DNA of 64,000 bases, taken from Mytilus californianus. Taxonomy: Eukaryota. Position 1 is the first letter of the stretch; each line of letters begins with the position of its first letter. The notes under the pieces are model-generated. The model was given only the letters and a program-made list of their open reading frames with translations. It made no database searches and had not been told where the DNA came from. The stretch lies in contig NW_026262679.1 of NCBI RefSeq assembly GCF_021869535.1, forward strand, positions 92,711,982 to 92,775,981, written 5' to 3'. Below are positions 6,225 through 56,269 of this stretch, piece after piece. Made by a program: the position numbers and the translations under genes.

Positions 6225-9200
6225 ATATGCAATAAAATGCTCCGCTGGGGCGCAGCTTAATACGACCGCAGAGGTCGAACCCTGAACAGTTGGGGCAAGT
6301 ATGGACACAACATTCAAGCTTGATACAGCACTGAATTTGGATTGTAATTAAATATTTGACACAGCATAGGTTTCTCACACAGAATGAAAGTAGTCTAAGA
6401 ACTTAAATTTTTTTAATTTACCTATTCAAACCATATCATTATTATTTGCTTTTATATATAAATCAGAAATAACCAATTTAAAATGGAAAATTTTAAAGAA
6501 AAAAAAGGGAAAAAAAATCCCCCCCCCAAATTTTTTGAAACCCCCTTATGATTCATCACCCCCAAACTCAATCCCAGCCTTCCCTTTGTGGTATGGTACC
6601 TTGCAGTACAATTTCAGAGAGATCCATACACTAGAACACAAATTATTGTCTGGAAACTAGAAAAATGCTTGGGTTTTTTGCACCTTTTTGGCCCCCAATT
6701 CCTAAAAGTTTAGGGCAATTACCCCCAAACTCAAACCAAGCTTTCCCTTTGTGATATGGAACCTTGCAGTACAATTTCATAAAGATCCATACACTTACAC
6801 ACAAGTTATTGTCATGAAACTAGAAAAATGCTTGTTTTTTTGCCCCTTTATGGCCCCTAATTCCTAACATTTTGAGACAATTACCCCCAAAAACAATCCC
6901 AGCCTTCCCTTTGTGGTATGGTACCTTGCAGTACAATTTCAGAGAGATCCATACACTTGAACACAAGTTATTGTCTGGAAACTAGAAAAATGCTTATTTT
7001 TGGCCCCTTATTCCTAAACGTTTTGGGCAAGTACCCCCAAACTCAATTCCAGCTTTCCCTTTGTGATATGGAACCTTGTAGTACAATTTCATAAATATCC
7101 ATACACTTACACACAAGTTATTGTCATGAAACTAGAAAAATGCTTGTTTTTTGCCCCCATAATTCCTAAAATTTGGAGGCAATTACCCCCAAAATCAATC
7201 CCAGCATTCAAACCCTCAATCAGCATCATTTAACAGTAATATCTAAAAAGGGAAATTACATAATAAAGGTATTAAAATAGAAAATGACATAGTCATGGCT
7301 AAAAATAAACAAAATCCTTAATCAGCAACATTTTACAGTAATATCTAAAAATAAAATTCCTTTGTAACCATAAAAGCCCATTTAAATACATCATGACAGA
7401 TATTAAAATAGAAAATGACATCATAGTCATGGCTAAACATAGCAAAAACCTTAATCAGCATCATTTAACAGTAATATCTAAAAATAAAAATTTCTTTGCA
7501 ACCATAAAAGTAAAATAGAAAATGACATCATAATCATAGCTAAAAATAAACAAAAATTTTTTTTATTACCAAATTTTAAATGGAGTTTATTAAACTAAAA
7601 CAATAAATTTGCAACCATAAAACCCCATTTAAACACATCATAAAAGTATTAAATAATTCAACTACATCATAAGGCTATAAAAATAGAAAATGACTTCATA
7701 GTCAAGGCTAAAGGTAAACAAAAAACCTTCATCAGCAAAATTTTATATTGGCAAATTTCCAATGAAGTTTATTATACTAAAATTGTTGGCAAATTTCCAA
7801 TGCATTTATTAACAATAAAGTTATTGGCAAATTTCCAATTTACATAATTTAAAAGCAGTGTAAGTGAGATATTTAAATGAGTTTGAATTACCAACCTTAC
7901 ACTGCTTTTAAATAATGTTTTGTACTTATTTGTCTATTAACCTGGAAACCCTTGTTTTTTCACCTTTTTTTCCCTTATTATTTAAAGGTTTGAGCCATAA
8001 CCCTACCCCAAAGCCAATTCTTAAATTCCAATGTAACCTAAATTTACAATATACATAACTTCAATTTAAGTTTTTGATAAAATCAAACCACATCATTATT
8101 ATTTGCTTTTATATCTAAATCAGAAATAATTAACCAACTTTAAGTGGAAAATTTTCACACATCACGCCCCCCCAAACTCAATCCCAGCCTTCAGTTTGTG
8201 GTATGGTACCTTGCAGTACAATTTCACAGAGATCCAATTACTTAAACACAATTAATTGTTGGAAACTAAAAAAAAATGCTTATTTTTAACCCCTTTTTTA
8301 GCCCCTTATTCCTAAACATTTGAGCAATTATCCCCCAAACTCAATTCCAACTTTCTCTTTGTGATCAGAATTAACCAACTTAAAATGGAAAATTTTAAAG
8401 AAAAAAAAAAGGAAAAAAAATCCCCCCCCCCCCCCAAATTTTTTGACCCACTTCCCTTTGTGGTATGGTACCTTTAAGTACAATTTCAGAGAAATCCATA
8501 CACTTGAACACAAGTTAATGTCTGGAAACTAAAAAAATGCTTATTTTTGCCCCCTTTTTTGGCCACTTATTAATAAATGTTTTGGGCAAACATTTTACAA
8601 TAATATTTAAAACTGAAATTAATTTGTAACCTTAAAATTAAATAGAAAATGACATCATAGTCATAGCTAAAAATAAACAAACTATTGGTAAATTTCCAAT
8701 ATAAAATTGGCAAATTTCCAATGAAGTTTATTATACTAAAATAATTGGCAAATTTCCAATTTACATAATTCAAACATAGTGCAGGTGAGATATTTAAATG
8801 AGTTTGAATTACCAACCTTACACTGCTTTTAAATAATGTTCTTTACTCAATTATTTGTCTATTAAAATGGAAACCCTAGTTTTTTAACCTTTTTTCCCCT
8901 TATTCCTTAAACGAAAAAAAATAATTACCCCTTTTTTGACCCCCCCCCCCCCTATGATTCATCACCCCCATTCCCCCCCCCCAAACCAAGCTCAATAACA
9001 GCCTTGCCTTTGTGGTATGGTACCTTGTAATACAATTTTAGAGAGATCCATACACTTGAACACAAGTTATTGTCTAGAAACTAAAAAATGCTTATTTTTT
9101 ACCCCTTTTTAGGCCCCTTATTACTAAACGTTTTGGGCAATTACCACAAAACTCATTTCCAGCTTTCCCTTTGCGAAATGGAACCTTGTAGTAAAATTTC

Positions 9201-9700
9201 AGAAAGATCCATACACTTACACACAAGTTATTGTCATGAAACTAGAAAAATGCTTGTTTTTTGCCCCCTTTTGGCCCCTTATTCCTAAAATTTCGAGGAA
9301 ATTAACCCCAAAATCAATCCCATCATCGACCCTTTGTGATATGGAATCTTGTAGTACAATGTCAAAGAGATCCATACAATAACACACAAGTTATGTCTGG
9401 AAGTTACAAAAATGCTTATTTTCGGCCCCTTTTTGGCCCCTAATTATTTAACTGTTGGTACCATAACCCCCAAAATCAATCCCCACCTTCCTATTGTGGT
9501 ATTGAACCTTATGGTAAAATTTCATAGAGATCCATTCACTTAAACTAAAGTTAGAGTGCGAAAACCATTGTGTATTCGGACGACGACGCCGGACGACGAC
9601 GACGCCGGACGACGACGACGACGACGACGACGCCAACGTCATACCAATATACGACCACAAAATTTTTTTGCGGTCGTATAAAAACAACACAAGTAAAGGC
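6225..9700 (-). mobile_element. Compound or nested Helentron-like non-autonomous element(s) carrying satellite arrays, minus orientation
   Basis: 6225-6400 is the reverse complement of the 3' terminus seen at 37920-38099. It is followed by an A/T plus poly-C junction (6400-6560), a 150-160-bp satellite array (6560-7200) and a different tandem repeat of about 115-120 bp (7200-7560). Further satellite units are interspersed with extra junction copies (8100-8600) and a second satellite array (8930-9560). The element ends with a (GAC/GTC)n microsatellite at 9575-9640 and the hairpin terminus tatacgacc..ggtcgtata at 9640-9700. Lies in an MCMBP intron. Confidence 0.7.
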
Positions 9701-13388: not shown

Positions 13389-13490
13389 CTCTTTTACCCA
13401 TGTTGTCTCCCCTGGTATTGGTACACAATATATTGTTTGTCTGTCCATAGTAACATTGTCACTGGATTCTACATCTATCTGTTGTGATTT
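13389..13490 (-). CDS. MCMBP: MCMBP exon
   Basis: tttttgcag|AAA ... GAG|GTAGGG. KSQQIDVESSDNVTMDRQTIYCVPIPGETTWVKE aligns to human ..[22 protein letters not shown]. Confidence 0.85.
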
Positions 13491-14300: not shown

Positions 14301-14308
14301 CTACTTAC

Positions 14309-15254: not shown

Positions 15255-18100
15255 TTGAATAAAATGCTCCGCTGGGTGCAGCTTGATACGACTGCAGAGG
15301 TTGAACCCTGAACAGTTGGGGCAAGTATGGACACATCATTCAAGCTTGATACAGCACTGAATTTGGATTGTAATTAAATATTTGACACAGCATAGGTTTC
15401 TGACACAGAATGAATGTGGTCTAAGAACTTAAATTTTTTTAATTTACCTATTTAAACCATATCATTATTATTTGCTTTTATATATAAATCAGAAATAACC
15501 AATTTAAAATGGAAAATTTTAAAGAAAAAAAAGGAAAAAATTTTTTGAACCCCCTTATGATTCATCACCCCCAAACTCAATCTCAGCTTTCCCTTTGTGG
15601 TATGGTACCTTGCAGTACAATTTCAGAGCGATCCATACACTTGAACACAAGTTATTGTCTGGAAACTAGAAAAATGCTTATTTTTTGGCCCCTTTTTGGC
15701 CCCAAATTCCTAAATGTTTAGGGCAATTACACTCAAACTCAAACTGTTTCAGACCTAGCCAAACTTAAATTGTTTTAACAGGTCAGGAGGTCCAGTAACA
15801 ACTATTTTTTACTGGACCTTCCTTCCTGTTACAGGACCTACTAATCATTACAGGTGAACAGCGCTTCGCGCTGCAAACTTGCTAGGGATGTCCCGGAGCA
15901 TGCCACCCTGAATAATTTTGAAAAATTAGATGCAAAATCCTTCATTCTGAGTGCTTTGACTATGATAAATGAAATAACCAAAACTACTATCTCGTACTAC
16001 ACTTTTGCATGTTTAATCACATTGCATAAAACTTCATTTTTTAAGACTTTATTTAGATTTATTCCTCTTTGGCATAATCTAGTATTTTATTTGAGTTTGT
16101 CTCAACTTTTTTTGGTGTGCTGTACTTTGATCATCGGCCTTCTGTTTTTTGACCAGGCACAGTCTTATCATAAAAATGGAGGAAACTCATGTTATTGTTT
16201 ACAACATGTGTTTCGGGCGCATGTGTAATGAACCAGGGAAAAAAGAAATGCCGGAAACTGACACAAAGGACATGACAATCGAGATACAAAATCTTCAAAA
16301 TATTCAAATTGAATGCCACAAAACCAGGTTCAACCCACCATTTTATTCTTAAAATGTCCTGTACCAAGTCAGGAAAATGGCCATTGTTATATTATAGTTC
16401 GTTTCTGTGTGTGTTACATTTTAATGTTGTGTTTTTGTTGTGTCGTTGTTCTCCTCTTATATTTGATGCGTTTCCCTCAGTTTTAGTTTGTAACCCGGAT
16501 TTGTTTTTATCTCTATCGATTTACGAGTTTCGAAAAGCGGTATACTACTGTTGCCTTTATTTAGGCAGTAGGGGACAAGCCAGTGAGCCTTAAAATCGTC
16601 TGACTGATAATGTTTTTTTAAAAAAAGAAGTCACATTAGAAATGACGATTTTCAGGGAATGCATAAAATAGTTGACAAGAAAATCTCGCCGTGTGTCAAT
16701 AGAAGCGTGATTTCATTGGCTGCTTTTCATATTATTGCATTCTCATTGGTTTACTATTTGTGCTGCCCATATATATCTATAAATATGACTAGGGTATGTC
16801 CGCGATCCTTATTAATATTTAATTAATTAATTGTTTTTCATTGATCTCGGGAGAAAAACAATATTTTGTGTTTAATATAGCAACACATTTTTCCCAATTT
16901 TAAAACTGTATGCTGCAAAAAATGTACAGGACAGGAGGTCCTGTAGTTCACAGGATGGTGGCGGACCTTCAAGTTTTTTACAGGTCATGCATGACCTGCG
17001 GTCCGACGATGTTTGGGTTGGTCTGCTGAAACCCAGCTTTCCCTTTGAGATATGGAACCTTGTAGTACAATTTCATAAAGATCCATACACTTACACACAA
17101 GTTATTGTCCTGAAACTAGAAAAATGCTTGTTTTTTGCCCCTTTTTCCTAAAATTTTAAGGCAATTACCCCCAAAATCAATCCCATCCTTCCCTTTGTGG
17201 TATGGTACCTTGCTGTACAATTTCAGAGAGATCCTAACACTTGAACACAAGTTATTGTCTGGAAACTAGAAAAATGCTAATTTTTGGCCCCTTATTCCTA
17301 AACGTTTAGGGCAATTACCCCCAAACTTAATTTCAGCTTTCCCTTTGTGATATGGAACCTTGTAGTACAATTTCATAAAGATCCATACACTTACACACAA
17401 GTTATTGTCCTGAAACTAGAAAATGCTTGTTTTTTGCCCCTTTTTCCTAAAATTTTAAGGCAATTACCCCCAAAATCAATCCCAGCCTTCTCTTTGTGGT
17501 ATGGTACCTTGCAGTACAATTTCAGAGAGATCCATACACTTGAACACAAGTTATTGTCTGGAAACTAGAAAAATGCTTATTTTTGGCCCCTTATTCCTAA
17601 ACGTTTAGGGCAATTACCCCCAAACTCAATTTCAGCTTTCCCTTTGTGATATGGAACCTTGTAGTACAATTTCATAAAGATCCATACACTTACACACAAG
17701 TTATTGTCATGAAACTAGAAAAATGCTTGTTTTTTGCCCCTTTTTTGGCCCCTAATTCCTAGAATTTGGAGGCAATTACCCCCAAAATCAATCCCAGCAT
17801 TCCCTTTGTGATATGGAACCTTGTGGTACAATGTCAGAGAGATCCATACACTAACACACAAGTTATGTCTGGAAGTTACAAAAATGCTTATTTTTGGCCC
17901 CTTATTGGCCCCTAATTTCTTAACTGTTGGTACCATAACCCCCAAAATCAATCCCAACCTTCCTTTTGTGGTATTGAACCTTATGGTGAAATTTCATAGA
18001 GATCCATTCACTTAAACTAAAGTTAGAGTGCAAAAACCAATGTGTCTTCGGACGACGACGCCAACGTCATACCAATATACGACCGCAAAATAAAAATCGG
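15255..18100 (-). mobile_element. Helentron-like satellite-carrying element (minus orientation) interrupted by a nested TIR element
   Basis: 3' terminus (reverse complement) at 15255-15440, junction at 15440-15560, one satellite unit, then a foreign 1.29-kb insert (15740-17027). The satellite array resumes at 17028-18050 as about 6.5 units with alternating A and B subtypes. The 5' terminus at 18050-18100 has a degraded hairpin. Confidence 0.7.
15740..17027. mobile_element. Non-autonomous TIR DNA transposon of about 1.29 kb inserted inside the satellite array
   Basis: The satellite consensus breaks at 15738 and resumes exactly at 17028. Insert ends are GTTTCAGACCTAGCCAAAC (left) and GTTTCAGCAGACCAACCCAAAC (reverse complement of right). 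Internal ORFs (15854-16228 and others) are low-complexity with no recognisable domain. Confidence 0.6.
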
Positions 18101-21925: not shown

Positions 21926-22530
21926 TATGGTTTAGGAGTGGGGACCGTTTACAAGTTCTCAAACAGGAGGGGGTGGGTTGACCCCAGGGACTCCCCCTAT
22001 ATTTCATTTGATTTTTTATATTGTCCCATACATCAATATATATGGTTTAGGAGTGGGGATTTCAACCGTTTACAAGTTCTCAAACAATAGGGGGTGGGGT
22101 GACCCCAGGGACTCCTCCTATATTTCATTTGATTTGTTATATTGTCCCATACATTAATATATATGGTTTAGGGGTGGGGATCTCGACCGTTTCCAAGTTC
22201 TCAAACAGGAGGGGGTGGGGTGACCCCAGGGACTCCCCCTATATTTCATTTAATTTGTTATATTGTCCCATACATGAATATATATGGTTTAGGGGTGGGG
22301 ATATCGAACGTTTACAAGTTCTGAAACAGAAGGGGGTGGGGTGACGCCAGGGATTCCCCCAAATTTTCATTTGATTTGTTTTATTGTCCCATACAAGTAT
22401 ATATATGGTTTAGGGGTGGGGATCGCGACCGTTTACAAGATAAAAGAACATTTTCAAATTGAAGGGGGGTGGGATGACCCCCAGGGACTCACCCTATATT
22501 TTATTTGATTTGTTTCATTGTCCTGTTCTC
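21926..22530. repeat. Satellite: unit of about 124 bp, about 4.9 copies
   Basis: The unit atatatggtttagg(a/g)gtggggat..cgtttacaagttctcaaacaggagggggtggggtgaccccagggactccccctatatttcatttgatttgttatattgtcccatacat is repeated head-to-tail, with the last copy diverged. The plus-strand ORFs 21908-22344 are repeat artefacts. Confidence 0.8.
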
Positions 22531-25675: not shown

Positions 25676-28322
25676 TTTTATTCCACTGTTTAAACATAAT
25701 GATAGTTTAATCAATATTTGATTGGTTGAGACTATCCCACGTGTCATTGAACAAATCTTCATATTCCATTCTGAAGATCATATTCTCCTCTGAAATGTCG
25801 GGATTACTTCATGCGACGTTACGCCAAAAACAAAAAGACTTATAATTAAATTTTGATCCTTATACTGTTTATCAATAGGTATGTCGTGTTTAATTTGACT
25901 TACGAAAACAAGCGGATAAGAAAAAAAATGTATGCAAAATAATATTTAATGTATTGATAGTAAACAAAGCATAGACAGTGGAATAAAACATTCATTTCCC
26001 TTTGCCTCGGGAGATATGAAGATTTGCTCACCCTCGAAAAATCATATTTCCCTCGGGCAGAACTTATATACATTTACGCTACAAATCTACAACTCAGTTT
26101 TGGCTACACGTCACATGCTTATCTATCAAGTCATGCATATTCAATAGATCAGTAGGCATGCACAAAAACGTAACATACACGATAATGACCAGCCAGTACA
26201 CCCTATTCTGATTTTATTAACCAGTATTAAAATAATTAAAAGACAAATATAACACAACAATCTGCTTTCAAATTTGTTGAACATTATAATCAAGAAACAC
26301 CAAGAAGCAATAAGGAGACAAGGGAGTAGGCCCGGTAAGACCCCTTTTTGGCCCCAAAATATAGCATTTTTACAAATTTGTTGAAATGTAAACTTTTAGC
26401 TATTTATTGGAATGTAGAATACTTATGTTCCATAAATATGGGCTGTTTCTGACAATACAGTGCACATGTATCAGGTACTAGCATCATAAATTCATGCAAA
26501 ATTCCTGAATTGTCACAATTTTAGCATTTGTGCTAATTTTAAGACGGTTTTTGTCTAAAATGGAAGTGGCCGCATTTGTGTTTTTATTCCACTGTTTAAA
26601 CATATTGATAGTTTAATCAATATTTGATTGGTTGAGACTATCCCACGTGTCATTGAACAAATCTTCATATTCCATTCTGAAGATCATATTCTCCTCTGAA
26701 ATGTCGGGATTACTTCGTGCGACGTTACGCCAAAAACAAAAAGACTTATAATTAAATTTTGATCCTTATACTGTTTATCAATAGGTATGTCGTGTTTAAT
26801 TTGACTTACGAAAACAAGCGGATAAGAAAAAAAATGTATGCAAAATAATATTTAATGTATTGATAGTAAACAAAGCATAGGCAGTGGAATAAAACATTCA
26901 TTTCCCTTTGCCTCGGGAGATATGAAGATTTGCTCACCCTCGAAAAATCATATTTCCCTCGGGCAGAGCCCTTGTGAAATATGAATATTCTTGGGTGAAC
27001 AAATCTTCATATCTCCCTCTGGCACGGGGAAATAAATGTATAATGTTTAATATTTTCAACAAAAATTCAAAAAAACATTTGAAGAAAAAAATTTAAAAAA
27101 TGTATCACAGTGAATTGATAATGATGTTTTTGATTAACCGGTTACTGGAAGTCGAATTCAGGGGCATGATATGGGTTTTCCAGGGCTGATATCGATATTG
27201 GCCCCGAAGGCAAATAACCAACCTTATAAATAGTTATTGATTGACAGGTTACCGAAAGTCAAAGTCGGGGGCACAATATGGATTTTCGAGGGCTAATATC
27301 GATATTGGTCCCAAGGGCAAATAACCAACCTTGACTTCCGGCAATATTGACCATGCAAAAACGTACATATTAGTACAAAACGTGTGATAATGCAGTATAT
27401 AGCATGAATAGCATTTATGTTGATTTCAATATTATTAGAAGTTATAAATTTGTTTGTCAGTGTCGCTTAAATCAAAAAGCGTTGAATGCCGTAGAGGATC
27501 CAAAATTGAAGAATATGTACAGAATAAATATAACAGAAGTTGGTGCAATCCTTAGTCAACATTAATTAGCAATTTTTCATATGACTGTAATTGATCTTGA
27601 TAATCTTTTCAACTGGTGTAATAACATTATTTTATTATGGGGCTGGAACGACTTGGGCCCAATTGACTTGGGGCCAGAACAACCTTATACCATTATATTG
27701 TATTCTCAAAACTACTTATATACATTTACGCTACAAATCTACAACTCAGTTTTGGCTACACGTCACATGCTTATCTATCAAGTCATGCATATTCAATAGA
27801 TCAGTAGGCATGCACAAAAACGTAACATACACGATAATGACCAGCCAGTACACCCTATTCTGATTTTATTAACCAGTATTAAAATAATTAAAAGACAAAT
27901 ATAACACAACAATCTGCTTTCAAATTTGTTGAACATTATAATCAAGAAACACCAAGAAGCAATAAGGAGACAAGGGAGTAGGCCCGGTAAGACCCCTTTT
28001 TGGCCCCAAAATATAGCATTTTTACAAATTTGTTGAAATGTAAACTTTTAGCTATTTATTGGAATGTAGAATACTTATGTTCCATAAATATGGGCTGTTT
28101 CTGACAATACAGTGCACATTTATCAGGTACTAGCATCATAAATTCATGCAAAATTCCTGAATTGTCACAATTTTAGCATTTGTGCTAATTTTAAGACGGT
28201 TTTTGTCTAAAATGGAAGTGGCCGCATTTGTGTTCAGTCTTTATATTAAAATATATATGTATTTGATGACCATACATAACATATATAAGGGTTGAGACTG
28301 AACACGAATGTGGCCACTTCCA
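25676..28322. repeat. Rearranged segmental duplication: A (25676-26060), B (26061-26583), A' (26584-26966), insert X (26967-27711), B' (27712-28245), ending in a hairpin
   Basis: A and A' share about 380 bp at about 97% identity, and B and B' share about 520 bp at about 98%. X starts with an inverted copy of the last 55 bp of A, making a 55-bp-arm palindrome across 26910-27015. X also contains two tandem units of about 107 bp (27140-27355). B' ends in a 27-bp-arm hairpin, ggaagtggccgcatttgtgttcagtct / agactgaacacgaatgtggccacttcc. Confidence 0.7.
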
Positions 28323-30602: not shown

Positions 30603-31348
30603 GTTTAGGCCTAACGGCAGGATTGGTAAAAATGGAGAAGCCATCTTCTGTGACAACTTCAGGAAGAAGTAGGCTTGACCAAAATTCTTCAAATAATGGT
30701 GGAAAGATTACATCTTCAGCCTTACAAAATACATTACTTGGACCAACAAAGTCGAGTTTTTCATTGTCAGGAACTCCAGGATTGTCATCAAATTTGACTA
30801 GCAGTTTGACCACATCATCCAATTTGTCTAGTAGACTTGGTTTGTCATCAGGTTTAAGTAGCAGGCTTGGACCATCCTCCAAATTAACAAGCAGTCTTCT
30901 GACAAAGTCTGACCAATCAAAACTTAGCTCATTGAGAAGTGATGAAACTAGAACTGACCAAACTTCTTCCGTGTTTAAGGAAAATTTACAATCAAATTTA
31001 CTGAAGTCAAACTCGCCTCTTGTCACGATAAAAATAGAACCAGTCACATCCTTCAGTTCTAGCGCTTTTTCAACTCAAAGTACACTAACAAGGCAATTGA
31101 GCTCAGATAAAAGGGAGACAACCAAAAGAAAGAGTAATGATCGCTCTGCAGTCAAATCAAGAAAGAAGATTATGAACAATGATGGGAAAGTTACTACCAT
31201 AACTAGATATGAGGTCAAACCACCACAGTATAAATTGGAAGTAGACATTAAAGACAAAGGAATTGATATCCCAGACTTTGTATCACCAGCACAGGATCCA
31301 AGTTTGAAACCTATTTCTAAACCATTACATGATGTGAATGGTATAAAG
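30603..31348 (+). CDS. TEP1: TEP1 exon 2, Ser/Thr/Leu-rich low-complexity N-terminal region
   Basis: Acceptor ttttttcag|GT. 248 codons in frame from exon 1. Degenerate SSxLxSSL repeats (..SSNLTSSLTTSSNLSSRLGLSSGLSSRLGPSSKLTSSLL..). Donor AAG|GTATTG, phase 0. The supplied ORF 30623-31492 runs on into the intron. Confidence 0.6.
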
Positions 31349-31761
31349 GTATTGATATCTACACAATATCTGGTGTCAAAATTAGGCATTGTTTTGCATT
31401 TGCCAGAAAGAATGATTGAAATTATCATCCACTGGCCCTTTCTTAAATGTTTAGGGATTCTATTCATGTCAGGTTGGGTTGGTGGATACTGAGTTACACC
31501 CTCTAAAACAGACAATTTTGAAGTTGCAGCTCAATCACTTGAGTATGTATGTTTCAATAAAGTTAATCCCCTTAAAAGTTTTTAAATTCTTTTCAGTTGC
31601 CTGAGAAATGAACTGTTCATTCAGAAAATTGGTTTTGTAAAAAGAAATAGTTATAAATGCATATGGAAAAGAAATATATAAGTAATTCTAATAGTCTGGT
31701 GCTTTTGATGTGATGAAAAAAAGTCATTGCTTAACATGTATTTTAAAATTTATTATTTTAG

Positions 31762-34397: not shown

Positions 34398-34559
34398 GTT
34401 GCACTGTACACCAGAAAACAACTTAACATAAGAACAACAGCAAACTTTCTGTTAGCCATGGCGGCTAATATTGATTTGTGCCGACCATTCTTAAAGAAAT
34501 ACTACTGTGCCTCTATCAGTTTACCATCAGACTGGATAGAAGTGGCTGAAATATATCAG
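34398..34559 (+). CDS. TEP1: TEP1 exon 4 (TROVE)
   Basis: ttttgtag|GTT ... CAG|GTTAGT. VALYTRKQLNIRTTANFLLAMAANIDLCRPFLKKYYCASISLPSDWIEVAEIYQ aligns to human ASLYARQQLNVRNVANNILAIAAFLPACRPHLRRYFCAIVQLPSDWIQVAELYQ. Confidence 0.9.
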
Positions 34560-36132
34560 GTTAGTACTGGTATGGTTACCTAAGGGAGATAATTTTAGGC
34601 TACAGGTACATGTAGTACCTTGAATATATCAGAGTAGTGATTCCTTATTTAGTCAAGGGACTCAATTATTGTCATGATTATGTAAGTAAATATTTTATGA
34701 TGCTTAATTTTGTTATTCTATCAGTTGTATTTTATCAAAGAAGCAAATAATTTCATTCCAATAAGTACTACACATTTAGAAATTACTGTGATGTTGGTAT
34801 AATATTGGATGTTCTACTGGAACAGGTTTCAAGAACAGAATTAATTGATAATTATTGTAAGTTGTTAAAGATTGACCAGAAAATGTTCATGCATTTAATT
34901 CGTGCGGTTGATCCAAGGTTCACGAGTGGGGGGTTATTGCCATCTTTGGGAAAAAATGAAGGAATCTATGACAAAAAATGACATTTTTCTGATAGGCATA
35001 CCCTTTTATGTCCCACCTGAATCTGCCACTGAATTATTTATTTTCAGTGTTAGAAATAAGTTTGTTTAAACAAAAGAAATCCATAAAAGTATTCCACTGA
35101 AATAAATAAATTTATTGAATTGAAGATGTAGTCTGCTCTACTACATACATAAATCAACTGTGCCATTTTGTAAAAAAATCTAAAACCCAATGTTAAACCT
35201 CTAGGTTTGCTCATTGTTACCATAATGCTTCAAATGACCTCAGGATCATTAGAGAAAAGACATGCATGAAAGTTTATTTTATGGAATTGAACTGATGTCT
35301 GAATATTCTGTACATCGTAACCATATAGAATTTACAAATCTTTAGTTTAATCTGTATTTTGTAAATAGTATTAGATATAGTTGTGATCTTACATTGATAG
35401 TCAAACACTGATATTTTTTATACGACCGCAAAAATTAAAAATTTTTTGGTCGTATATTGGTATGACGTTGGCGTCGTCGTCGTCGTCGTCTGGCGTCGTC
35501 CGAAGACACATTGGTTTTCGCACTCTAACTTTAGTTTAAGTGAATGGATCTCCATGAAATTTCACCATAAGGTTCAATACCACGAAAGGAAGGTTGGGAT
35601 TGATTTTGGGGGTTATGGTACCAACAGTTAAGGAATTAGGGGCCAAAAAGGGGCCAAAAATAAGCATTTTTGTAACTTTCAGACAATAACTTGTGTGTAA
35701 GTGTATGGATCTCTCTGACATTGTACCACAAGGTTCCATATCACAAAGGGAAGGCTGTAATTGATTTTGGGGGTAATTGCCCGAAACGTTTAGGAATTGG
35801 GGGCCAAAAAGGGGCCAAAAATAAGCATTTTTCTAGTTTCCAGACAATAACTTGTGTTCAAGTGTATGGATCTCTCTGAAATTGTACTGCAAGGTACCAT
35901 ACCACAAAGGGAAGGCTGGGATAGAGTTTGGGGGTGATGAATCATAAGGGGGTTCAAAAAATTTGGGGGGGGGGGGGGGGATTTTTTTTTTTTTTTTTTC
36001 TTTTTTTCCTTTTTTTTTCTTTTAAAATTTTCCATTTTAAGTTGGTTATTTCTGATTTATATTTAAAAGCAAATAATAATGATATGGTAGGAGATACACA
36101 CCAAACAGGATGTGTAAATTATTATATAATAA

Positions 36133-36360
36133 GTATTGTGCAATAGCAAGAAATTTTCAATTGCACAGTATTGCACAATAGCAAGAAATCTTCAATTGCA
36201 CAGTATTGCGCAATAGCAAGAAATCTTCAATTGCACAGTATTGCACAATAGCAAGAAATATCCAATAGCACAATATTGCGCAATAGCAAGAAATTGTCAA
36301 TTGTACAGTATTGCGCAATAGCAAGAAATATTCAATTGCACAGTATTGTGCAAAAGAAGA
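36133..36360 (+). repeat. 35-bp minisatellite, about 6.5 copies, each unit containing the palindrome TATTGCGCAATA/TATTGCACAATA
   Basis: The unit cacagtattgcacaatagcaagaaatcttcaattg is repeated head-to-tail. Its core ATTGCGCAAT equals the canonical C/EBP palindrome. The same array occurs at 45670-45890. Confidence 0.8.
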
Positions 36361-36399
36361 TACTTTGTATAAATTGCTTATTTCTTGACCAATTTCAAT

Positions 36400-37900
36400 G
36401 GGGTTTTATTCTTGAATTCTTGGGGTTCTTTAATATGCTGAATCTAACCTTGTATTAAGTTTTTGGATTTTGGGCCCCGTTTTTAAATTGGTCCACATTG
36501 AGGTCCAAAGGGTCCAAAATTTAACTTTGTTTGATTTCATCAAAAATTGAATTCTTGGGGTTCTTTGATATGCTGAATCTAAACATGTGTTTAGATTTTT
36601 GATTATGGGCCCAGTTTTCAAGTTGGTCCAAGTTGGGTCCAAAATTAAACTTTGTTTGATTTCAACAAAAATTGAATATATGGGGTTCTTTGATATGCTG
36701 AATCTAAACATGTATTTAGATTTTAGATTTTTGGCCCAGTTTTCAAGTTGGTCCAAATTGGGGTCCAAAATTAAACTTTGTTTGATTTCAACAAAAAATG
36801 AATATATGGGGTTCTTTGATATGCTGAATCTTACCATGTATTTAGATTTTTTATTTGTGGGCCCGCTATCAAATTGGTTCATATTGAGGTCAAAAGGGTC
36901 CAAAATTAAACTTTGTTTGATTTCATCAAAAATTGAATTATTGGGGTTCTTTGATATGCCAAATCTAACCGTGTATTTAGATTTTTAATTTTGGGTCCTG
37001 TTTTTTAAATTGGTCTACATTAAGGTCCAAAGGGTCCAAAATTAAACTTAGTTTGATTTTAACAAAAATTGAATTTTTGGGGTTCTTTGATATGCTAGAT
37101 CTAAACATGTGTTAAGATTTTTGATTATGGGACCAGTTTTCAAGTTGGTCCAAGTTGGGGTCCAAAATTAAACTTTGTTTGATTTTAACAAAAATTGAAT
37201 TTTTGGGGTTCTTTGATATGCTAGATCTAAACATGTGTTAAGATTTTTGATTATGGGACCAGTTTTCAAGTTGGTCCAAGTTGGGGTCCAAAATTAAACT
37301 TTGTTTGATTTCAACAAAAATTGAATATAACGGGTTCTTTGATATGCTAAATCTAAACATGTATTTAGATTTTAGATTTTTGGCCCAGTTTTCAAGTTGG
37401 TCCAAATTGGGGTCCAAAATTAAACTTTGTTTGATTTCAACAAAAATTGAATATATGGGGTTCTTTGATATGCTGAATCTTACCATGTATTTAGATTTTT
37501 TATTTGTGGGCCCGCTATCAAATTGGTTCATATTGAGGTCAAAAGGGTCCAAAATTAAACTTTGTTTGATTTCATCAAAAATTGAATTATTGGGGTTCTT
37601 TGATATGCCAAATCTAACCGTGTTTTTAGATTTTTAATTTTGGGTCCCGCTTTTTAAATTTGTCTACATTAAGGTCCAAAGGGTCCAAAATTAAACTTAG
37701 TTTGATTTTAACAAAAATTGAATTCTTGGGGTACTTTGATATGCTGAATCTAAACATGTGTTTAGATTTTTGATTATGGGCCCAGTTTTCAAGTTTGTCC
37801 AAGTTGGGGTCCAAAATTAAACTTTGTTTGATTTCAACAAAAATTGAATATATGGGGTTCTTTGATATGCTGAATCTAACCATGTATTTTGATTTTGGAC
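36400..37900 (+). repeat. Satellite: unit of about 125-143 bp, about 12 copies
   Basis: The unit ttgaat(tc/at)ttggggttctttgatatgctgaatctaaacatgt(g/a)tttagatttttgattatgggcccagttttcaagttggtccaa(g/a)ttggggtccaaaattaaactttgtttgatttcaacaaaaa has long and short variants. ORFs on both strands (36430-36903, 36587-36988, 37238-37949) are repeat artefacts. Confidence 0.85.
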
Positions 37901-38214
37901 ATTGGACCATAATAGGTAAATTAAAAAAATTGAAGTTCTTAGACCACATTCTTTCTGTGTCAGAAACCTATGCTGTGTCAAATATTTAATCACAATCCAA
38001 ATTCAGAGCTGTATCAAGCTTGAATGTTGTGTCCATACTTGCCCCAACTGTTCAGGGTTCGACCTCTGCGGTCGTATCAAGCTGCGCCCAGCGAAGCATT
38101 TTATTTAAATTTAAATGTACAGAAAATATAAACTGTGTTACTGTTATATTATCATATTTCAAAATTCATATTACACAGTCTTTACCATAAATGCAATGTG
38201 TTTTATCTCTTCAG

Positions 38215-49222: not shown

Positions 49223-49528
49223 GTATGTTAAATTTAATCCTGTCACATGTTTGCATGCCTAAGCCATGTTTAAAAAATCTCATCTTGGGTATGTTTAAGC
49301 TATAAGGTTTTTGTTTGTTATGAATTTGGTCTTTGTGTCTGATATTTGATTATCTTTGTTGAATTTATAAACTACTTGTGCATACCCTATAGTCATCTAT
49401 AATTAAACCCATATATCATCATTTAGTATCTTTTTATGGTCTCATTAGGGGTTTCTCACCTCAAAATTTTGTCTAGAAATTTTTTTGTAATGCCTTGTGT
49501 AATTCACTGTCAAAACATTATATTTTAG

Positions 49529-49709
49529 AGAGACACCTTATGATCCATCACTTATACAGAGATACAGGAAAGCTTTAGATACAGCTGTTAAGATAGCAAC
49601 AGTATACAATGTCCAACCAATCAAAGGAAAGACAATCGTTCTGTGTGATGTTGGAGAGAATATGGACGTTAATTGTACAGCAGCTAGGGGTCTTGGAAAA
49701 CCAAGAAAG
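49529..49709 (+). CDS. TEP1: TEP1 exon 12
   Basis: attttag|A ... AAG|GTTAGA. KETPYDPSLIQRYRKALDTAVKIATVYNVQPIKGKTIVLCDVGENMDVNCTAARGLGKPRK aligns to human MLNRYRQALETAVNLSVKHSLPLLPGRTVLVYLTDANADRLCPKSN. Confidence 0.85.
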
Positions 49710-50312
49710 GTTAGATCAACTTCATTGGAATAGATTAATCTGAACTTTAAACATGAAAACCTAGACTGAATATTTACTTTACATAGCTATGATATTTGCC
49801 CAATGAGTTGCAATTTTATAATACCAATTGATGCACTTTTTCTTACCTTTGAATTGGAGTTCATTTAATCTGCTTTCATCCCACATATGCACATTTATTT
49901 GCCTTTTTGAGTTTAACAATTGACAACCAATCAGTTAATAGAAACATTCAGTGCTATTGGACTGGAAAATCAAATTTAAGAATGATAAATAAATGGAAAG
50001 ATACAGATTAAAAAGATAAGTCAAAGTTATCTAGGTTCAACCTTGCCTGGCAGACTTAAAAATCAGTTTCTGCAAAAAATTTCATCTATCAGTGGAAAAC
50101 ATTTCTAAATTGATGTATGGCATAAATCATGCTAGTGCCAAAAATAAAAAAATTTCATCTGTCTGAAAACAGTTGAAAGGTCGTACAATGCCTCCAAAGT
50201 ATCAAAATCGTAGGTTATAATGATATATCATTGCATGTCTGTTTATGTTTTAGTAAAAACCGTACTTATACTTTGTGGATTTCTGTTATAAAATAAATTC
50301 TTTTTATTTTAG

Positions 50313-50459: not shown

Positions 50460-50595
50460 GTAAGAATTTAAACTCTTATGTGTCTGTATTCAACATAAAG
50501 AATATTATTCATAACTGAGCTCTTTATTTTGAAGTGTTGTTTTATTATTTCCTTTGAAAAGGAAAACACTGCTGTGTATTGATTTCTTATCTATT

Positions 50596-51413
50596 TTTAG
50601 TCCCCTACCGACGAAGTCGAAGGGGACTTTAGGTTTGCACTCCGTCCGTCTGTCCATCCGTCAGTCCGGCAAATCAGCTTTCCACACTTTTTTTCTTCGT
50701 TCTCGAAGATATTGATTTGATATTTGGTATATAGTTTTATCATGACAAGTTATAGATCAAGTTCGAATTTTGATCCGGTCTGATGATTTAGTCCAGAGTT
50801 ATGGACCATAACTCTGGACCATATGTAATGTTAGAGTACTATGTTAAACAATATTTCTGTACAAAGGGAGATAACTCATTTTTTAAAAGACATTCTTTGT
50901 TAAAGTATTTGAAGAATTTTTTGGCAGGTTTGTTTGTTATTTAGTATAAACTAATTTTCTGAATGCTATAGATATAAAAAAAATTATGAAGAGAAATCCT
51001 TTAATTAGATAATAATCTATTTTTATTAATGTATATATTTCAATACATTACATTGATAGATAAAAGTTGTTGACATTTTATAGATAAGTTACAAATCTAT
51101 ATTAGTTTGTGACAAATGAAAGAAAAAATATTTGGAACTAATAATTATATTTGATTATAATTTGAAAATAGATATACACTGCATTACATCATATCTAATT
51201 TCAGAGAACTATTAATCATATCTAATGTTTTTTTCACTCATATAATCCGTTTTCCCCACTGTTTTTAGTCATGCTTGAAGATATTGACATGATATTTACT
51301 TTTTGTTTACACCATGACAAGTTATAGAACAAGTTAGCATTTTGTTCCAGTTAAATGAATTTTTACTCGGTAGGGGACTATGTATTGCCATGCAATACTC
51401 TCAGAATGCTTGT
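50596..51413 (+). mobile_element. Uninterrupted copy (empty site) of the about 820-bp TIR host element, in TEP1 intron 13
   Basis: Inverted ends TAGTCCCCTACCGAC (50598) and CTCGGTAGGGGACTA (51366-51380). At the insertion point the sequence is cacacttttttt|cttcg. The filled copy reads cacacttttt-[ATACGACC...GCGAAGCAT]-tttattttcttcg. Confidence 0.8.
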
Positions 51414-51752
51414 TTAAAATAATATGTAAGAATGATCATGAGGCTGTTGTTGGTGGCAATCCTATCTTCTAAACCACTTTATGGGTGCTGTGTTTGTTGG
51501 AATTAATGGTTAAGCTTATATTAGAAATTGTTTACCAAACAGCATTTCTTGGTTTGAAAGTACATTTGTAGTTTCTGGTTGGGAATATTTGAACATATTT
51601 GTCCATTTGCATTTATATGTGGTATACAGAAAAGTTTTGACTTAAAGTTGAAAATTGAATTTGCCATTTTCAAACAAATTTACTTACAGTTGGATGATTT
51701 CATTTGCAGTTTTTTGTGCTTAATATATTATTTTAACAAATTTATATTTTAG

Positions 51753-52892: not shown

Positions 52893-53325
52893 TTTATGCC
52901 TCCGCCGTAGCGGAGGGAGCATTAAGTTTTACCCTTGACCGTCTGTACGTCCGTACGTCCTGAAATTTGTTTCTGTTCTCTAACTTTAGTTTGCCTCAAA
53001 CAAATGTTATGAAACTTATACACAATGCTTACTACAATAAAACACAGATCAAGTTTGAATTTTAGTGGTGTCACTTTTATCGTTCTAGAGTTATGCCCCT
53101 TTACAAATGGAAAAATTGCTGAATTTTTTGTTTATGTTTTCTAACTTAAGTTTGCCTCAACCAAATGTCATGAAACTTATACACAATGCTTATTACAACA
53201 AAACTCAGATGAAGTACGAATTTGGGTAGCGTCACTTTTACCTTTCTTGAGTTATTTCCCTTTATAACGTTATATGTTCAAGTGGGGCATCATCAGTGTC
53301 CCATGGACACATTCCCCATTTATTG
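52893..53325. repeat. Short dispersed element with palindromic head CCTCCGCCGTAGCGGAGG and an internal 2-copy 160-bp tandem duplication
   Basis: Head at 52899-52916 is a perfect 7-bp-stem palindrome. Units of about 160 bp lie at 52981-53110 and 53142-53270. The tail GGGGCATCATCAGTGTCCCATGGACACATTC matches 42745-42780. Confidence 0.55.
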
Positions 53326-55082: not shown

Positions 55083-56026
55083 GTAGGAATTCAATTGTTT
55101 TCACGGGATGATATAGTTTACAAAATTTATCTTTTTTTTTTTTACCTGTATGAAGTAAAGCCCCTGTTATGAAAAGTCTTAATGAAAATGTTACGTACAT
55201 GATCAAAATTCTTACTTTTTTTACTCTTTAACTTTTAACTTTTAAATATTTAGTTTAAGAAATATAAAAAGGTTGATAAATTGGAGCTTGTAAACATTTG
55301 TAGTAATTAGTTAGGATAGCAAATAAGTTTGAAATGAAATTTTATAACAGCTATTATACATGTTCTGTTAAGAAAAATTTAGATTATGTTCTAGAGGTAA
55401 AACTCACTTTAATTGTTAAGTTTCTTTTCTCTATAAATTTTTTCCATATTATGAAAAATGAAGGTATTTTTTACCTTTTTCTTATGGAAATCAATGTATA
55501 GATATAATTTGTTTATTAAAGTGTCACATTTTGATTGCAATAAAAAGAATTCATACACAATATACATACATAATAAAACAGCCAATATCCAGCCAAAAAT
55601 CTGACTTACGAGACACTATATACCAAATAAAGACAGCGTAAAAGTAAAAAAAATATATATATGTCTTTTTCACTAAAGAATAATCCTAAGTATATTGTTA
55701 AATAAGCAGACATAAGGCTCTGATGATGGACCCATACTGACTTGCAAACAAACAGAGCAGAGTAATGTTGTCAAAAAGAAGTTTATGGGAAAACGTTTTT
55801 TTCTTGCAAGTTCTTGTTTATTTAATTTATAATTACTTAAATTACACAAAAAGCAGCACACTTTTTACCTTTTTAAGATTTTTTGTTGTTGCAATTAATT
55901 GAAGTTCACATTTTGTGTAATTGAGTTTCTTTTAAAAGGAAGTGGTTTTGTTTTGAATTTTTATGCTAATTGGAATATTATGCAATTAAGTAGGATATTA
56001 TAAACCCTACAGTATTTCTTTTGTAG

Positions 56027-56269
56027 GACATTAGAGTTATGCTTATCAGAAGTTTCCAAATGCCAGTTTTTTATTGGCATCCTAGGGGAACGATATGGGT
56101 ATATGCCTGATAAATACACTGTGCCAGATACACCTGAATATGACTGGGTGAAACATTACCCTCAAGGGGCCTCAGTGACAGAATTAGAAATGCATTTAGG
56201 AGTTTTGATGAATGCTGCACAGAAACAAGACAAAGCTGTGATGATGATCAGAAACAATAATTTTATTAA
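56027..56269 (+). CDS. TEP1: TEP1 exon 19
   Basis: ttttgtag|G ... ATTAA|GTAAGT. KTLELCLSEVSKCQFFIGILGERYGYMPDKYTVPDTPEYDWVKHYPQGASVTELEMHLGVLMNAAQKQDKAVMMIRNNNFI aligns to human [64 protein letters not shown]. Confidence 0.9.

What the first reader, a model, noticed from the sequence alone, without database searches (positions are those of the whole stretch)
35420..38099. A family of Helentron-like non-autonomous elements that carry up to three different tandem arrays; five copies in 64 kb
Copies lie at 6225-9700 (minus, compound), 15255-18100 (minus), 35420-38099, 38434-39731 and 44506-46741 (plus). All share the same asymmetric termini. The 5' end is ATACGACCGCAAAAA..TTTTGCGGTCGTAT, a terminal hairpin, followed by a (GTC)n microsatellite. 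The 3' end is a conserved 180-bp block ..CCCCAACTGTTCAGGGTTCGACCTCTGCGGTCGTATCAAGCTGCGCCCAGCGAAGCAT containing a second short hairpin CGACC..GGTCG. Both ends share the motif ATACGACCGCA in inverted orientation. Insertions sit in T runs (ttttt|ATAC...GCAT|tttt). Asymmetric ends with sub-terminal hairpins and T/T target preference are the hallmarks of Helentron/Helitron2 rolling-circle elements. In oysters, non-autonomous Helentrons are known to carry satellite arrays. Here the cargo is modular: a 150-160-bp satellite alone (38434-39731), or that satellite plus a 35-bp minisatellite plus a 125-143-bp satellite (35420-38099, 44506-46741). This modularity suggests array gain or loss during propagation.
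Basis: partly seen in the sequence, partly recalled or inferred. Interest (0 to 1): 0.7.

Follow-up and report, generated by a model that had tools for sequence, protein, structure and literature searches.

The report
Satellite-carrying Helentron-type transposon relics (HINEs)
The window holds five decayed copies of a non-coding rolling-circle-type transposon (a HINE, the passenger form of Helentrons) that carries one to three different tandem-repeat arrays; this kind of element is already well described in oysters, clams, mussels and flies, so the finding is correct but ordinary.

Summary
Five copies share one asymmetric architecture:
- a T-run, then the 5' motif ATACGACCGCA with its inverted copy 1-20 nt later;
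- a (GTC)n microsatellite;
- an ordered ~160-bp array and a G/T-rich spacer;
- a ~185-bp right block holding the inverted motif TGCGGTCGTAT, a stem-loop GCTGCGC-CCA-GCG(G/A)AGC, and the tail ATTTTATT.

Two copies also carry a 35-bp and a ~126-bp array.

A second, uninterrupted copy of the sequence that copy E landed in lies in the same window. It has CACAC-T7-CTTCG where the filled site has CACAC-T5-[ATAC...GCATTTTATT]-TT-CTTCG. So insertion was inside a T-run, with no duplication longer than TT. The mobile unit extends 28 nt past the 3' inverted repeat.

Every structural hallmark of HINEs (DINE-1-like non-autonomous Helentrons) is met. The autonomous partner was not found.

- the 3' end is 6 nt further out (TTTATT);
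- the canonical 3' stem-loop lies after the inverted motif;
- copy B lost its 5' motif by a 12-nt deletion and holds a nested transposon;
- copy A is a mosaic.

Short and long forms are separate subfamilies. A metagenome relative has the 35- and 126-bp arrays in the opposite order. Two-array HINEs are already published. Verdict: a new member of a known kind, of low to moderate interest.

The parts
35420..38105 (+). Copy C, long form (the focal copy): left flank, 160-bp array x2.6, spacer, 35-bp array x6.6, link, ~126-bp array x11-12, right flank
   Evidence: Sequence; TRF; module map
35420..35430 (+). 5' subterminal inverted repeat ATACGACCGCA of copy C, directly after a T6 run
35446..35455 (+). 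IR: degenerate inverted copy (TTGGTCGTAT) pairing with the 5' motif to form the terminal hairpin
   Evidence: DNA fold -10.9 kcal/mol, z -4.1
35470..35501 (+). (GTC)n microsatellite of the left flank; its length varies between copies
35526..35939 (+). ~160-bp satellite-like array with ordered monomer types (first type, internal type, truncated last type)
   Evidence: TRF; monomer typing
35940..36131 (+). Spacer with a G-run and T-run, conserved in all copies up to ...AATAATGATATGGT, where the short and long forms diverge
36132..36360 (+). 35-bp minisatellite x6.6 (the unit holds the palindrome TATTGCGCAATA); the region including this array (36100-36420) is 97.8% identical to the matching region of copy E
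36412..37899 (+). ~126-bp satellite array with a ~650-bp higher-order duplication (93% identical); each unit holds the palindrome AATCTAAAC-ATGT-GTTTAGATT
37906..38105 (+). Right flank, about 185 bp conserved in all five copies
38067..38077 (+). 3' subterminal inverted repeat TGCGGTCGTAT, 28 nt from the 3' end
38081..38097 (+). 3' stem-loop GCTGCGC-CCA-GCGAAGC, followed by the tail ATTTTATT (38098-38105)
   Evidence: Fold; tail shown to be element-borne
38434..39737 (+). Copy D, short form: 160-bp array x5.5 only; lies 328 bp downstream of copy C in the same orientation
44506..46747 (+). Copy E, long form: 160-bp x5.6, 35-bp x6.6, ~126/135-bp x4.5; nested inside a HINE of another family
6231..9679 (-). 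Copy A, a mosaic: normal 5' part and normal short-form 3' part around an interior of monomer fragments plus 133-bp and 38-bp arrays that match another subfamily (L005)
15258..18091 (-). Copy B, short form: 5' motif lost by a 12-nt deletion; the 160-bp array is interrupted by a nested TIR element at about 15745-17028
50683..50699 (+). Paralogous empty site for copy E: CACAC-T7-CTTCG
   Evidence: Joined flanks of E match 50593-50842 at 90.6% across the junction; alignment A1

Best explanation
These are five independent, now decaying insertions of one family of HINEs. HINEs are the non-autonomous derivatives of Helentron (Helitron-like, rolling-circle or 'peel-and-paste') transposons.

Inferred mechanism, from what is known of Helitron/Helentron elements: a Rep-helicase(-endonuclease) protein supplied in trans by an autonomous Helentron elsewhere in the genome recognises the two ends. 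The 5' end is ATACGACCGCA with its nearby inverted copy. The 3' end is TGCGGTCGTAT plus the stem-loop GCTGCGC-CCA-GCGGAGC and a T-rich tail. One strand is peeled off and integrated, in a fixed orientation, into a run of T without a conventional target duplication.

Shown here: the anatomy, the sharp ends, the T-run target, the absence of a duplication longer than 2 nt, and the non-terminal position of the 3' inverted repeat.

The tandem arrays are passive cargo. The ~160-bp array keeps fixed first, second and last monomer types. It changes length through an internal two-monomer unit (323 bp), as expected from unequal exchange or slippage.

The long form is a separate subfamily. It carries a second block (tail of a 126-bp monomer, 35-bp array, link, 126-bp array) spliced between ...GATATGGT and AATAGGTAAAT.... 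The most likely source is recombination or template switching with a related HINE that carries those arrays. After that event each form spread by transposition.
For: Motif enrichment and positions. The same module order and orientation in five copies with unique flanks.

Hairpin stability.

Empty site: T7 in the empty copy against T5+[element]+TT in the filled copy, with a gap-free alignment only if the element ends at TTTATT.

All five family copies, plus three copies of two other HINE-like families in the window, start right after a T-run; seven of the eight have T5 or longer.

A signature scan (T-run + hairpin + GTC microsatellite) picks out only these elements among about 50 hairpin hits.

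No Pfam family above threshold in the largest ORFs, which include those inside the arrays; one sub-threshold SoxZ hit (E 0.0033, 17.5 bits against a 25-bit cut-off) was judged chance. No Rfam family or tRNA.

Short and long forms differ at four or more diagnostic positions in the shared spacer and right flank.

Monomer types are ordered 2-5-(3-4)n-3-6.

Metagenome relatives share the right flank but carry other cargo or a different cargo order.

The published definition of HINEs and Cg_HINEs matches point by point (PMC4067079, PMC7492417).
Against: No autonomous Helentron with these ends was found in the window or elsewhere, so the enzyme is inferred.

Only one empty site is available, and it is paralogous. 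It cannot tell an element-borne terminal TT from a TT target duplication.

The copies are 4-7% diverged with damaged termini, so no current activity is shown.

No experiment on Helentron transposition is cited. The mechanism is carried over from Helitrons and from comparative work.
Confidence: 0.85

Rival explanations
1. A cut-and-paste MITE with terminal inverted repeats and a TT (AA) target-site duplication. This is how pearl, DTC84 and DINE-1 elements were first classified.
For: An 11-nt inverted repeat is present at both ends. The empty-site T count also fits an element ATAC...TTTA plus a TT duplication. Earlier literature used this reading (PMC3879986).
Against: The empty site shows that the inserted unit runs 26-28 nt beyond the 3' inverted repeat and includes a stem-loop, so the repeats are not terminal on that side. 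The ends are strongly asymmetric. The same architecture has been tied to autonomous Helentrons in mites, mosquitoes and flies (PMC4067079).
Confidence: 0.07
2. A non-autonomous canonical Helitron: 5'-TC...CTRR-3' ends, a 3' hairpin, and insertion between A and T.
For: It belongs to the same superfamily, and Repbase files oyster HINEs under 'Helitron-N'. A 3' hairpin is present.
Against: The ends are AT(A)... and ...TTATT, with no TC or CTRR. The target is T|T in a T-run, not A|T. Subterminal inverted repeats are present, which canonical Helitrons lack.
Confidence: 0.04
3. Not mobile: local segmental duplications of a satellite block with conserved junctions, or ends that are simply part of a longer satellite.
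For: Five copies lie within 64 kb. Two of them are only 328 bp apart.
Against: All flanks are unique apart from E's host repeat. An empty paralogous site exists. The ends are sharp. Related right flanks occur in five unrelated metagenome contigs with different flanks.
Confidence: 0.02
4. A SINE-like retroposon read on the opposite strand: it would begin at AATAAAATGC and be followed by an A-run.
For: On the minus strand every copy is followed by an A-run.
Against: The empty site shows no gain of A's (2+5=7) and no target duplication. There is no tRNA, 5S or 7SL head and no Rfam family. The length of the T-run is set by the target.
Confidence: 0.01

Closest known systems
Cg_HINE elements of Crassostrea gigas (Vojvoda Zeljko et al. 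2020, PMC7492417)
   Same: Left flank with an 11-12-nt subTIR, an inverted copy 1-12 nt away and a GTC-based microsatellite. A central array of up to about 5 monomers of 140-180 bp, always in one orientation. A right flank with a subTIR plus a palindrome. T-rich/TT insertion without TSD, and frequent insertion into other repeats. Some Cg_HINEs carry two arrays, and related flanks can carry unrelated arrays.
   Different: Sequence similarity could not be tested: the table of oyster substructures is illegible in the held supplement. Here up to three different arrays sit in one element. The microsatellite is a trinucleotide (GTC)n, whereas 4-nt motifs are the most common in oyster. The right-flank conserved block is ~185 bp rather than ~60 bp.
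DINE-1 / HINE elements of Drosophila, mite and mosquito (Thomas et al. 2014, PMC4067079)
   Same: subTIRs, a 5' IR 3-22 bp away, a microsatellite, central repeats, a 3' stem-loop 8-35 bp from the end, variable T's at the boundaries, and no target modification.
   Different: Different phylum and unrelated sequence. Autonomous partners are known there (>95% identical ends) but not here.
MgE of Mytilus galloprovincialis and the pearl elements CvA/CvE/CvG of Crassostrea virginica (Kourtidis et al. 2006; Gaffney et al. 2003; cited in PMC7492417 and PMC3879986)
   Same: Modular bivalve elements with about 160-bp core repeats between flanks that hold inverted repeats. They are now regarded as HINEs.
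   Different: Those papers and sequences are not held, so identity with MgE could not be tested. MgE is reported to lack the microsatellite (PMC3879986), which this family has. The source organism of the window was not identified.
DTC84 of Donax trunculus (Satovic and Plohl 2013, PMC3879986)
   Same: An ordered array of monomer variants with fixed positions whatever the copy number, and a palindrome inside the repeat units.
   Different: In DTC84 the microsatellite (ACGG) follows the array. Here (GTC)n precedes it in the orientation used. The sequences are unrelated as far as can be judged.

Membership tests
HINE (non-autonomous Helentron, DINE-1-like) | No coding capacity | tested here: met
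   Only array-borne open frames. No Pfam family above threshold (one sub-threshold SoxZ hit, judged chance) and no Rfam family.
HINE (non-autonomous Helentron, DINE-1-like) | 11-15-nt subterminal inverted repeats, close to the 5' end and tens of nt from the 3' end | tested here: met
   ATACGACCGCA at the 5' end and TGCGGTCGTAT 28 nt from the 3' end. It is an 11/11 match in copies A and C; copies B, D and E have one-base changes or, in B, have lost the 5' copy.
HINE (non-autonomous Helentron, DINE-1-like) | Short inverted repeat (IR) 1-22 nt after the 5' subTIR | tested here: met
   The gap between the 5' motif and its inverted copy is about 5-20 nt (about 3 unpaired nt in the folds, because the flanking A/T runs pair). 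Hairpins fold at -6.3 to -14.1 kcal/mol.
HINE (non-autonomous Helentron, DINE-1-like) | Stem-loop/palindrome between the 3' subTIR and the 3' terminus (8-35 nt from the end) | tested here: met
   GCTGCGC-CCA-GCG(G/A)AGC, 3 nt after the subTIR and 8 nt from the end. It is predicted in 4 of 5 window copies and in relative L004. Energies are modest (z -1.0 to -2.9). No compensatory changes were seen.
HINE (non-autonomous Helentron, DINE-1-like) | Microsatellite and/or central tandem repeats | tested here: met
   (GTC)n plus 160-bp, 35-bp and 126-bp arrays.
HINE (non-autonomous Helentron, DINE-1-like) | Insertion in a TT/T-run without target-site modification | tested here: inconclusive
   T-run target: all five 5' flanks end in TT, and four of them in T4 or longer. 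One paralogous empty site shows T7 against T5+element+TT. A duplication longer than 2 nt is excluded; a TT duplication cannot be told apart from an element-borne TT.
HINE (non-autonomous Helentron, DINE-1-like) | [quoted passage not shown] | not testable with these tools
   No such ORF in the window. The collections that could be scanned gave only non-autonomous fragments.
Canonical Helitron | 5'-TC ... CTRR-3' ends and insertion between A and T | tested here: not met
   The ends are ATAC... and ...TTATT, and the target is T|T.
TIR-type MITE | Inverted repeats at both extreme termini and a fixed-length TSD | tested here: not met
   The 3' repeat is 26-28 nt internal to the inserted unit, and no TSD longer than 2 nt exists.
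BIV160 / Cg170 satellite family (for the 160-bp cargo) | Sequence similarity, including the two conserved blocks | tested here: inconclusive
   Only the two published BIV160 primers were available (PMC5139131). Neither matches the monomers better than shuffled primers do: 344/500 and 382/500 shuffles score at least as well. The consensus sequence is not held.
MgE (Mytilus galloprovincialis) | Sequence identity with the published element | not testable with these tools
   The paper is not held. No text match to six diagnostic strings from the 35-bp and 126-bp units and the right flank. Strings from the 160-bp monomer found nothing, and the 11-nt terminal motif matched only unrelated papers.

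The most novel reading that the evidence does not exclude
This may be an undescribed HINE family, probably from a marine bivalve, in which at least three and across subfamilies five unrelated tandem arrays behave as exchangeable cassettes. Arguments: the same 35-bp and 126-bp arrays occur in opposite order in a metagenome relative. The 160- and 126-bp arrays are fused there exactly at a shared GG(G/T)CCAAA(A)GGG(G/T)CCAAAA motif. The long form keeps a stub of a 126-bp monomer in front of its 35-bp array. If motif-guided recombination between Helentron cargos is real, it would give a concrete, testable route for how satellites are assembled and spread. A possible sense-strand bias of intronic copies (7 of 7) would add a selective angle.
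Probability: 0.3. Interest if true: 0.45.

Novelty: new member of a known kind. Interest (0 to 1): 0.28.

Why it matters
The window is a compact, well-resolved example of how Helentron passengers carry, reshuffle and scatter satellite-like arrays into gene introns.

It includes an in-window empty site that fixes the element's true ends. For genome annotation, this means these arrays should be masked as transposon cargo rather than called as independent satellites. The termini given here could be used to pull out the whole family and look for its autonomous partner.

It does not change the current understanding of Helentrons or of satellite DNA. HINEs with satellite cargo, including double arrays, nested insertions and T-run targets, are already published for oysters, and similar elements are known from clams, mussels and insects.

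Tried and rejected
1. Exact-pattern scans for the 5' block in bacterial/archaeal genomes and viral contigs, and for the 3' block in both: no hits. Only the metagenome scan gave loci.
2. Looking for a Rep/helicase in the window. The ORFs of 110 aa or more were scanned with Pfam, and open frames of 55 aa or more were listed, with selected ones scanned. Only host-gene domains turned up (MCM_bind, TROVE, DUF4062), plus one sub-threshold SoxZ hit judged chance.
3. Organism identification from a Ser-rich ORF and a TROVE exon: only unnamed Logan/ENA fragments, 80-92% identical. A 20-kb orthologous stretch from a relative (L008) has no module of this family.
4. Full-text search for diagnostic sequence strings. 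Strings from the arrays and the right flank found nothing. The 11-nt terminal motif matched only unrelated papers, several on microRNA work.
5. The Kourtidis 2006 (MgE) paper is not held. The oyster substructure table is illegible.
6. BIV160 primers against the 160-bp monomer: no better than shuffles.
7. Rfam and tRNA scans: nothing. The retroposon reading was rejected.
8. Strand asymmetry of T-runs as an explanation of the sense orientation of intronic copies: rejected, because T- and A-runs are equally frequent.
9. Open reading frames inside the 126-bp array as coding sequence: rejected. There is no family match, and the frames follow from a period divisible by three.
10. Empty sites for copies A-D: none in the sequence available.
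Full report

Yes. The 11-mer ATACGACCGCA (up to 1 mismatch) occurs 13 times in the window, against 0.14 expected. None of 100 dinucleotide-preserving shuffles reaches 13. Twelve of the 13 hits sit at the claimed element ends.

I cut copy E into modules and mapped them back with blastn. The modules were left flank, 323-bp dimer of the ~160-bp repeat, spacer, 35-bp repeat, link, ~126-bp repeat and right flank.
- There are five right flanks: 6237-6418 and 15264-15444 on the minus strand, and 37906-38099, 39556-39731 and 46541-46741 on the plus strand.
- There are five left flanks.
- All five copies have 160-bp arrays, in one orientation relative to the flanks.
- The 35-bp and 126-bp arrays are present only in 35420-38105 and 44506-46747.

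Tandem Repeats Finder gives the same arrays. The right flank is 93-96% identical between copies.

**2. Anatomy**

Reading 5' to 3', a copy consists of:
- a T-run in the flank;
- ATACGACCGCA;
- a short A/T gap of about 5-20 nt;
- the inverted copy TGCGGTCGTAT;
- ATTGGTATGACGTTGGC;
- a variable (GTC)n microsatellite;
- ~25 nt, then the ~160-bp array;
- a spacer with a G-run and a T-run, ending ...AATAATGATATGGT;
- either TTG/TTA (short form: copies A, B, D) or a 0.95-2.0-kb block (long form: copies C, E);
- AATAGGTAAAT... and the ~185-bp right flank, ending CTGTTCAGGGTTCGACCTCTGCGGTCGTATCAAGCTGCGCCCAGCG(G/A)AGCATTTTATT.

As single-stranded DNA the 5' end folds into a strong hairpin: -14.1, -12.8, -10.9 and -6.3 kcal/mol, with z from -7.6 to -2.0.

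The 3' region forms two small hairpins:
It overlaps the inverted motif and is destroyed by CpG>CpA in copies B and D.
- GCT.GCG-CCA-CGC.AGC lies three bases after the motif. This one corresponds to the '3' palindrome' of the HINE definition.

**3. Where exactly are the ends, and is there a target duplication?**

First, a metagenome scan with a 22-mer of the right flank returned five contigs. L004 and L005 share ...GCGGAGCACCTGGTT and then diverge (TTATTATC against GGAAAATGG). L001 has ...GGAGTATCTGGTT|AT. This stretch is collinear with GCATTTTATT of the window copies. Four of the five window copies have exactly TTTATT after GCAT.

Second, copy E is inserted in another repeat of which a second, uninterrupted copy lies at 50599-51414.
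- The joined flanks of E match 50593-50842 at 90.6% across the junction.
- The empty site reads CACAC-TTTTTTT-CTTCG.
- The filled site reads CACAC-TTTTT-[ATACGACC...GCATTTTATT]-TT-CTTCG.
- With the element ending at TTTATT the alignment is gap-free. With GCAT as the end it needs a 5-6-nt gap.

Four things follow:
- Insertion was inside a T-run, between two T's.
- Nothing longer than TT can have been duplicated.
- The inserted unit extends 26-28 nt beyond the 3' inverted repeat, so the inverted repeats are not terminal.

What cannot be decided is whether the final TT belongs to the element or is a TT duplication. The same ambiguity is recorded for DINE-1 (PMC4067079).

No other flank pair shows a direct repeat beyond T's. 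The flanks of copies A-D are unique in the sequence available. The copies are therefore separate insertions, not segmental duplicates.

**4. State of the copies**

- Copy B has lost TACGACCGCAAT, which is the 5' motif. Its 160-bp array is split by a ~1.28-kb element with imperfect terminal inverted repeats and an apparent GTTT duplication.
- Copy A has an ordinary 5' part (element positions 1-694) and an ordinary short-form 3' part (2471-3449). In between is a 1.8-kb mosaic of monomer fragments, spacer pieces and two other arrays (133 bp and 38 bp). Their motifs recur upstream of the right flank in metagenome contig L005. No internal termini are present, so it is not a simple nesting of complete elements.
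- Several differences in the termini are at CpG sites. Four of 29 right-flank substitutions are CpG transitions at five CpG sites.
- These copies are relics.

**5. Cargo**

Clustering of the ~160-bp monomers gives the order 2-5-(3-4)n-3-6. The first, second and (truncated) last types are fixed. The number of internal 3/4 pairs varies, which accounts for the 323-bp higher-order period. The same behaviour is described for DTC84 of Donax (PMC3879986).

Short and long forms differ at diagnostic positions in the parts they share:

| Short form | Long form |
|---|---|
| TATATATAAAAGC | TATATTTAAAAGC |
| AAATTGG | AAGTTGG |
| CAGTGCTG | CAGAGCTG |
| GCGGAGCAT | GCGAAGCAT |

They are therefore two subfamilies that each spread, not local deletions.

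The region containing the 35-bp arrays of C and E is 97.8% identical, with the same 6.6 units. The 126-bp array has 4.5 units in E and about 11-12 in C. The C array includes a ~650-bp internal duplication that is 93% identical.

In contig L004 the same right flank is preceded by a 161-bp array, then a 126/139-bp array, then the 35-bp array. That is the opposite order to the window. There the 161- and 126-bp arrays are fused at a motif both monomers contain, GG(G/T)CCAAA(A)GGG(G/T)CCAAAA. The window's long form keeps about 20 nt of a 126-bp monomer tail just before its 35-bp array.

Contigs L002 and L003 have 126-bp-like repeats running directly into a 5'-truncated right flank.

Recombination or template switching between related elements is the simplest source. 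This step is inferred.

**6. What it is**

The literature defines HINEs / DINE-1-like elements by these features (PMC4067079):
- no coding capacity;
- 12-15-nt subterminal inverted repeats;
- an extra inverted repeat 3-22 nt from the 5' one;
- a microsatellite and often central tandem repeats;
- a stem-loop 8-35 nt from the 3' end;
- variable T's at the boundaries;
- insertion in TT/T-rich sequence without target modification.

The oyster elements Cg_HINE_1 to _13 have the same parts, with 11-12-nt subTIRs, an IR 1-12 nt away, and GTCY/GTCC/GTCK microsatellites in several of them. They also have 140-180-bp repeats, mostly up to five, always in one orientation, and they frequently insert into other repeats (PMC7492417). 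Every one of these structural points was tested here and met.

Other classes were checked:
- The largest ORFs of the window gave no Pfam family above threshold, and further listed ORFs gave only host-gene domains.
- No Rfam family or tRNA is present.
- Canonical Helitron ends (TC...CTRR, A|T target) are absent.
- A TIR-type MITE is contradicted by the non-terminal 3' repeat.
- A retroposon reading is contradicted by the empty site, which shows no A/T gain and no duplication.

The one defining feature I could not test is the autonomous partner.

**7. Mechanism**

Inferred from established knowledge of Helitron-like elements:
- A Helentron Rep/helicase(/endonuclease) supplied in trans recognises the end structures.
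- It displaces one strand and integrates it into an oligo-T target in a fixed orientation.
- The arrays ride along and change by unequal exchange or slippage.

Shown here: the structures, the sharp ends, the T-run target, the fixed orientation relative to the T-run in 8 of 8 HINE-like copies in the window, and the absence of a conventional duplication.

**8. Novelty**

The kind is well known.
- MgE of Mytilus galloprovincialis and the pearl elements are cited as having the same architecture.
- I could not test identity with MgE (paper not held), nor name the source organism.
- The held literature has no paper on Helentrons in mussels specifically.
- No text matches the diagnostic strings from the arrays and the right flank. 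The 11-nt motif hits only unrelated papers.

I therefore rate it a new member of a known kind. A three-array cargo and a reshuffled array order are modest extras.

**9. Context**

The window holds two genes:
- an MCMBP-like gene on the minus strand (exons at 14300-14575, 3845-4105 and 2774-3004);
- a TEP1-like gene on the plus strand (TROVE exons at 34398-34580, 41461-41664, 42061-42291 and 49503-49730; DUF4062 at 56004-56270).

Copy A lies in an MCMBP intron. Copies C, D and E lie in TEP1-like introns, and copy B lies upstream of MCMBP. Two further HINE-like families are present, both in TEP1-like introns.

All seven intronic copies are in the sense orientation. T-runs and A-runs are equally common on both strands, so target availability does not explain this. 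With n=7 it remains a lead only.

Noticed in passing
window 44396-47597 and 50599-51414: A second HINE-like family ('family 3'). Its 5' end is TTTTT|AGTCCCCTACCGAC(A/G)AAGTCGAAGGGGACT (hairpin -10.8 kcal/mol), followed by a (GTCC/GTCT)n microsatellite. Its 3' end is AGGGGACT-AT-GTATTGC-CAT-GCAATAC...GCTTGTT. The first copy hosts copy E of the studied family. The second copy is the empty site.
   Followed up: partly
window 52896-53324: A third HINE-like family ('family 2'). Its 5' end is TTTTT|ATGCCTCCGCCGTAGCGGAGGGAGCAT, followed by a GTCY microsatellite and a 161-bp repeat x1.9. Its 3' end is GTGGGGCAT-CATCAG-TGTCC-CAT-GGACA-CATTCCCCATTTATT. It shares CTCTAACTTTAGTTT at the start of the first monomer, and the TTTATT tail, with the studied family. 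This suggests common ancestry of the internal parts.
   Followed up: partly
window 15745-17028 (minus-strand reading): A ~1.28-kb element nested in the 160-bp array of copy B. It has imperfect terminal inverted repeats (CAGACC.A.CC.AAAC) and an apparent GTTT target duplication. It holds a 124-aa ORF with no Pfam family.
   Followed up: partly
window: copies at 6231-9679 (-), 35420-38105, 38434-39737, 44396-47597, 44506-46747, 50599-51414, 52896-53324 (+): All seven intronic HINE-like copies are in the sense orientation of their host gene (MCMBP-like on minus, TEP1-like on plus). T- and A-runs are equally frequent on both strands, so target availability does not explain it. The complement of the 3' tail TTTATT is AATAAA, which might select against antisense copies. 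This is speculation, and the sample is small.
   Followed up: partly
window 2774-14575 (-) and 34398-61047 (+): Host genes. MCM_bind (MCMBP-like) exons lie on the minus strand. TROVE and DUF4062 (TEP1-like) exons lie on the plus strand. A 289-aa Ser-rich ORF at 30623-31492 has no Pfam family and one unnamed 91%-identical relative.
   Followed up: partly
window 36412-37899 and 45947-46543; L004 1388-1410: The 126-bp and 160-bp monomers both contain GG(G/T)CCAAA(A)GGG(G/T)CCAAAA. In metagenome contig L004 the two arrays are fused at that motif. The 126-bp unit also has the palindrome AATCTAAAC-ATGT-GTTTAGATT, and the 35-bp unit has TATTGCGCAATA.
   Followed up: partly
window 36430-36903 (-), 36587-36988 (+), 37281-37637 (+), 45990-46439 (-): Open frames of 118-157 aa run through the 126-bp arrays. 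No Pfam family reaches threshold. They were judged a by-product of a repeat period divisible by three.
   Followed up: yes
window 3558-3852, 11740-12741, 21943-22439, 27126-27332; 26144-26395 and 27796-28047: Other tandem arrays were not studied (161 bp x1.8, 500 bp x2, 121 bp x4.1, 107 bp x1.9). The first has a weak 69% match to the family-3 repeat. Two identical 84-aa open frames lie about 1.65 kb apart on the minus strand, which points to a local duplication or another repeat.
   Followed up: no
L008 13518-14437: The orthologous TEP1-like region of a related species (80% identical exon, a 1.55-Mb ENA contig) holds a 157-bp x5 array but no module of the studied family.
   Followed up: no
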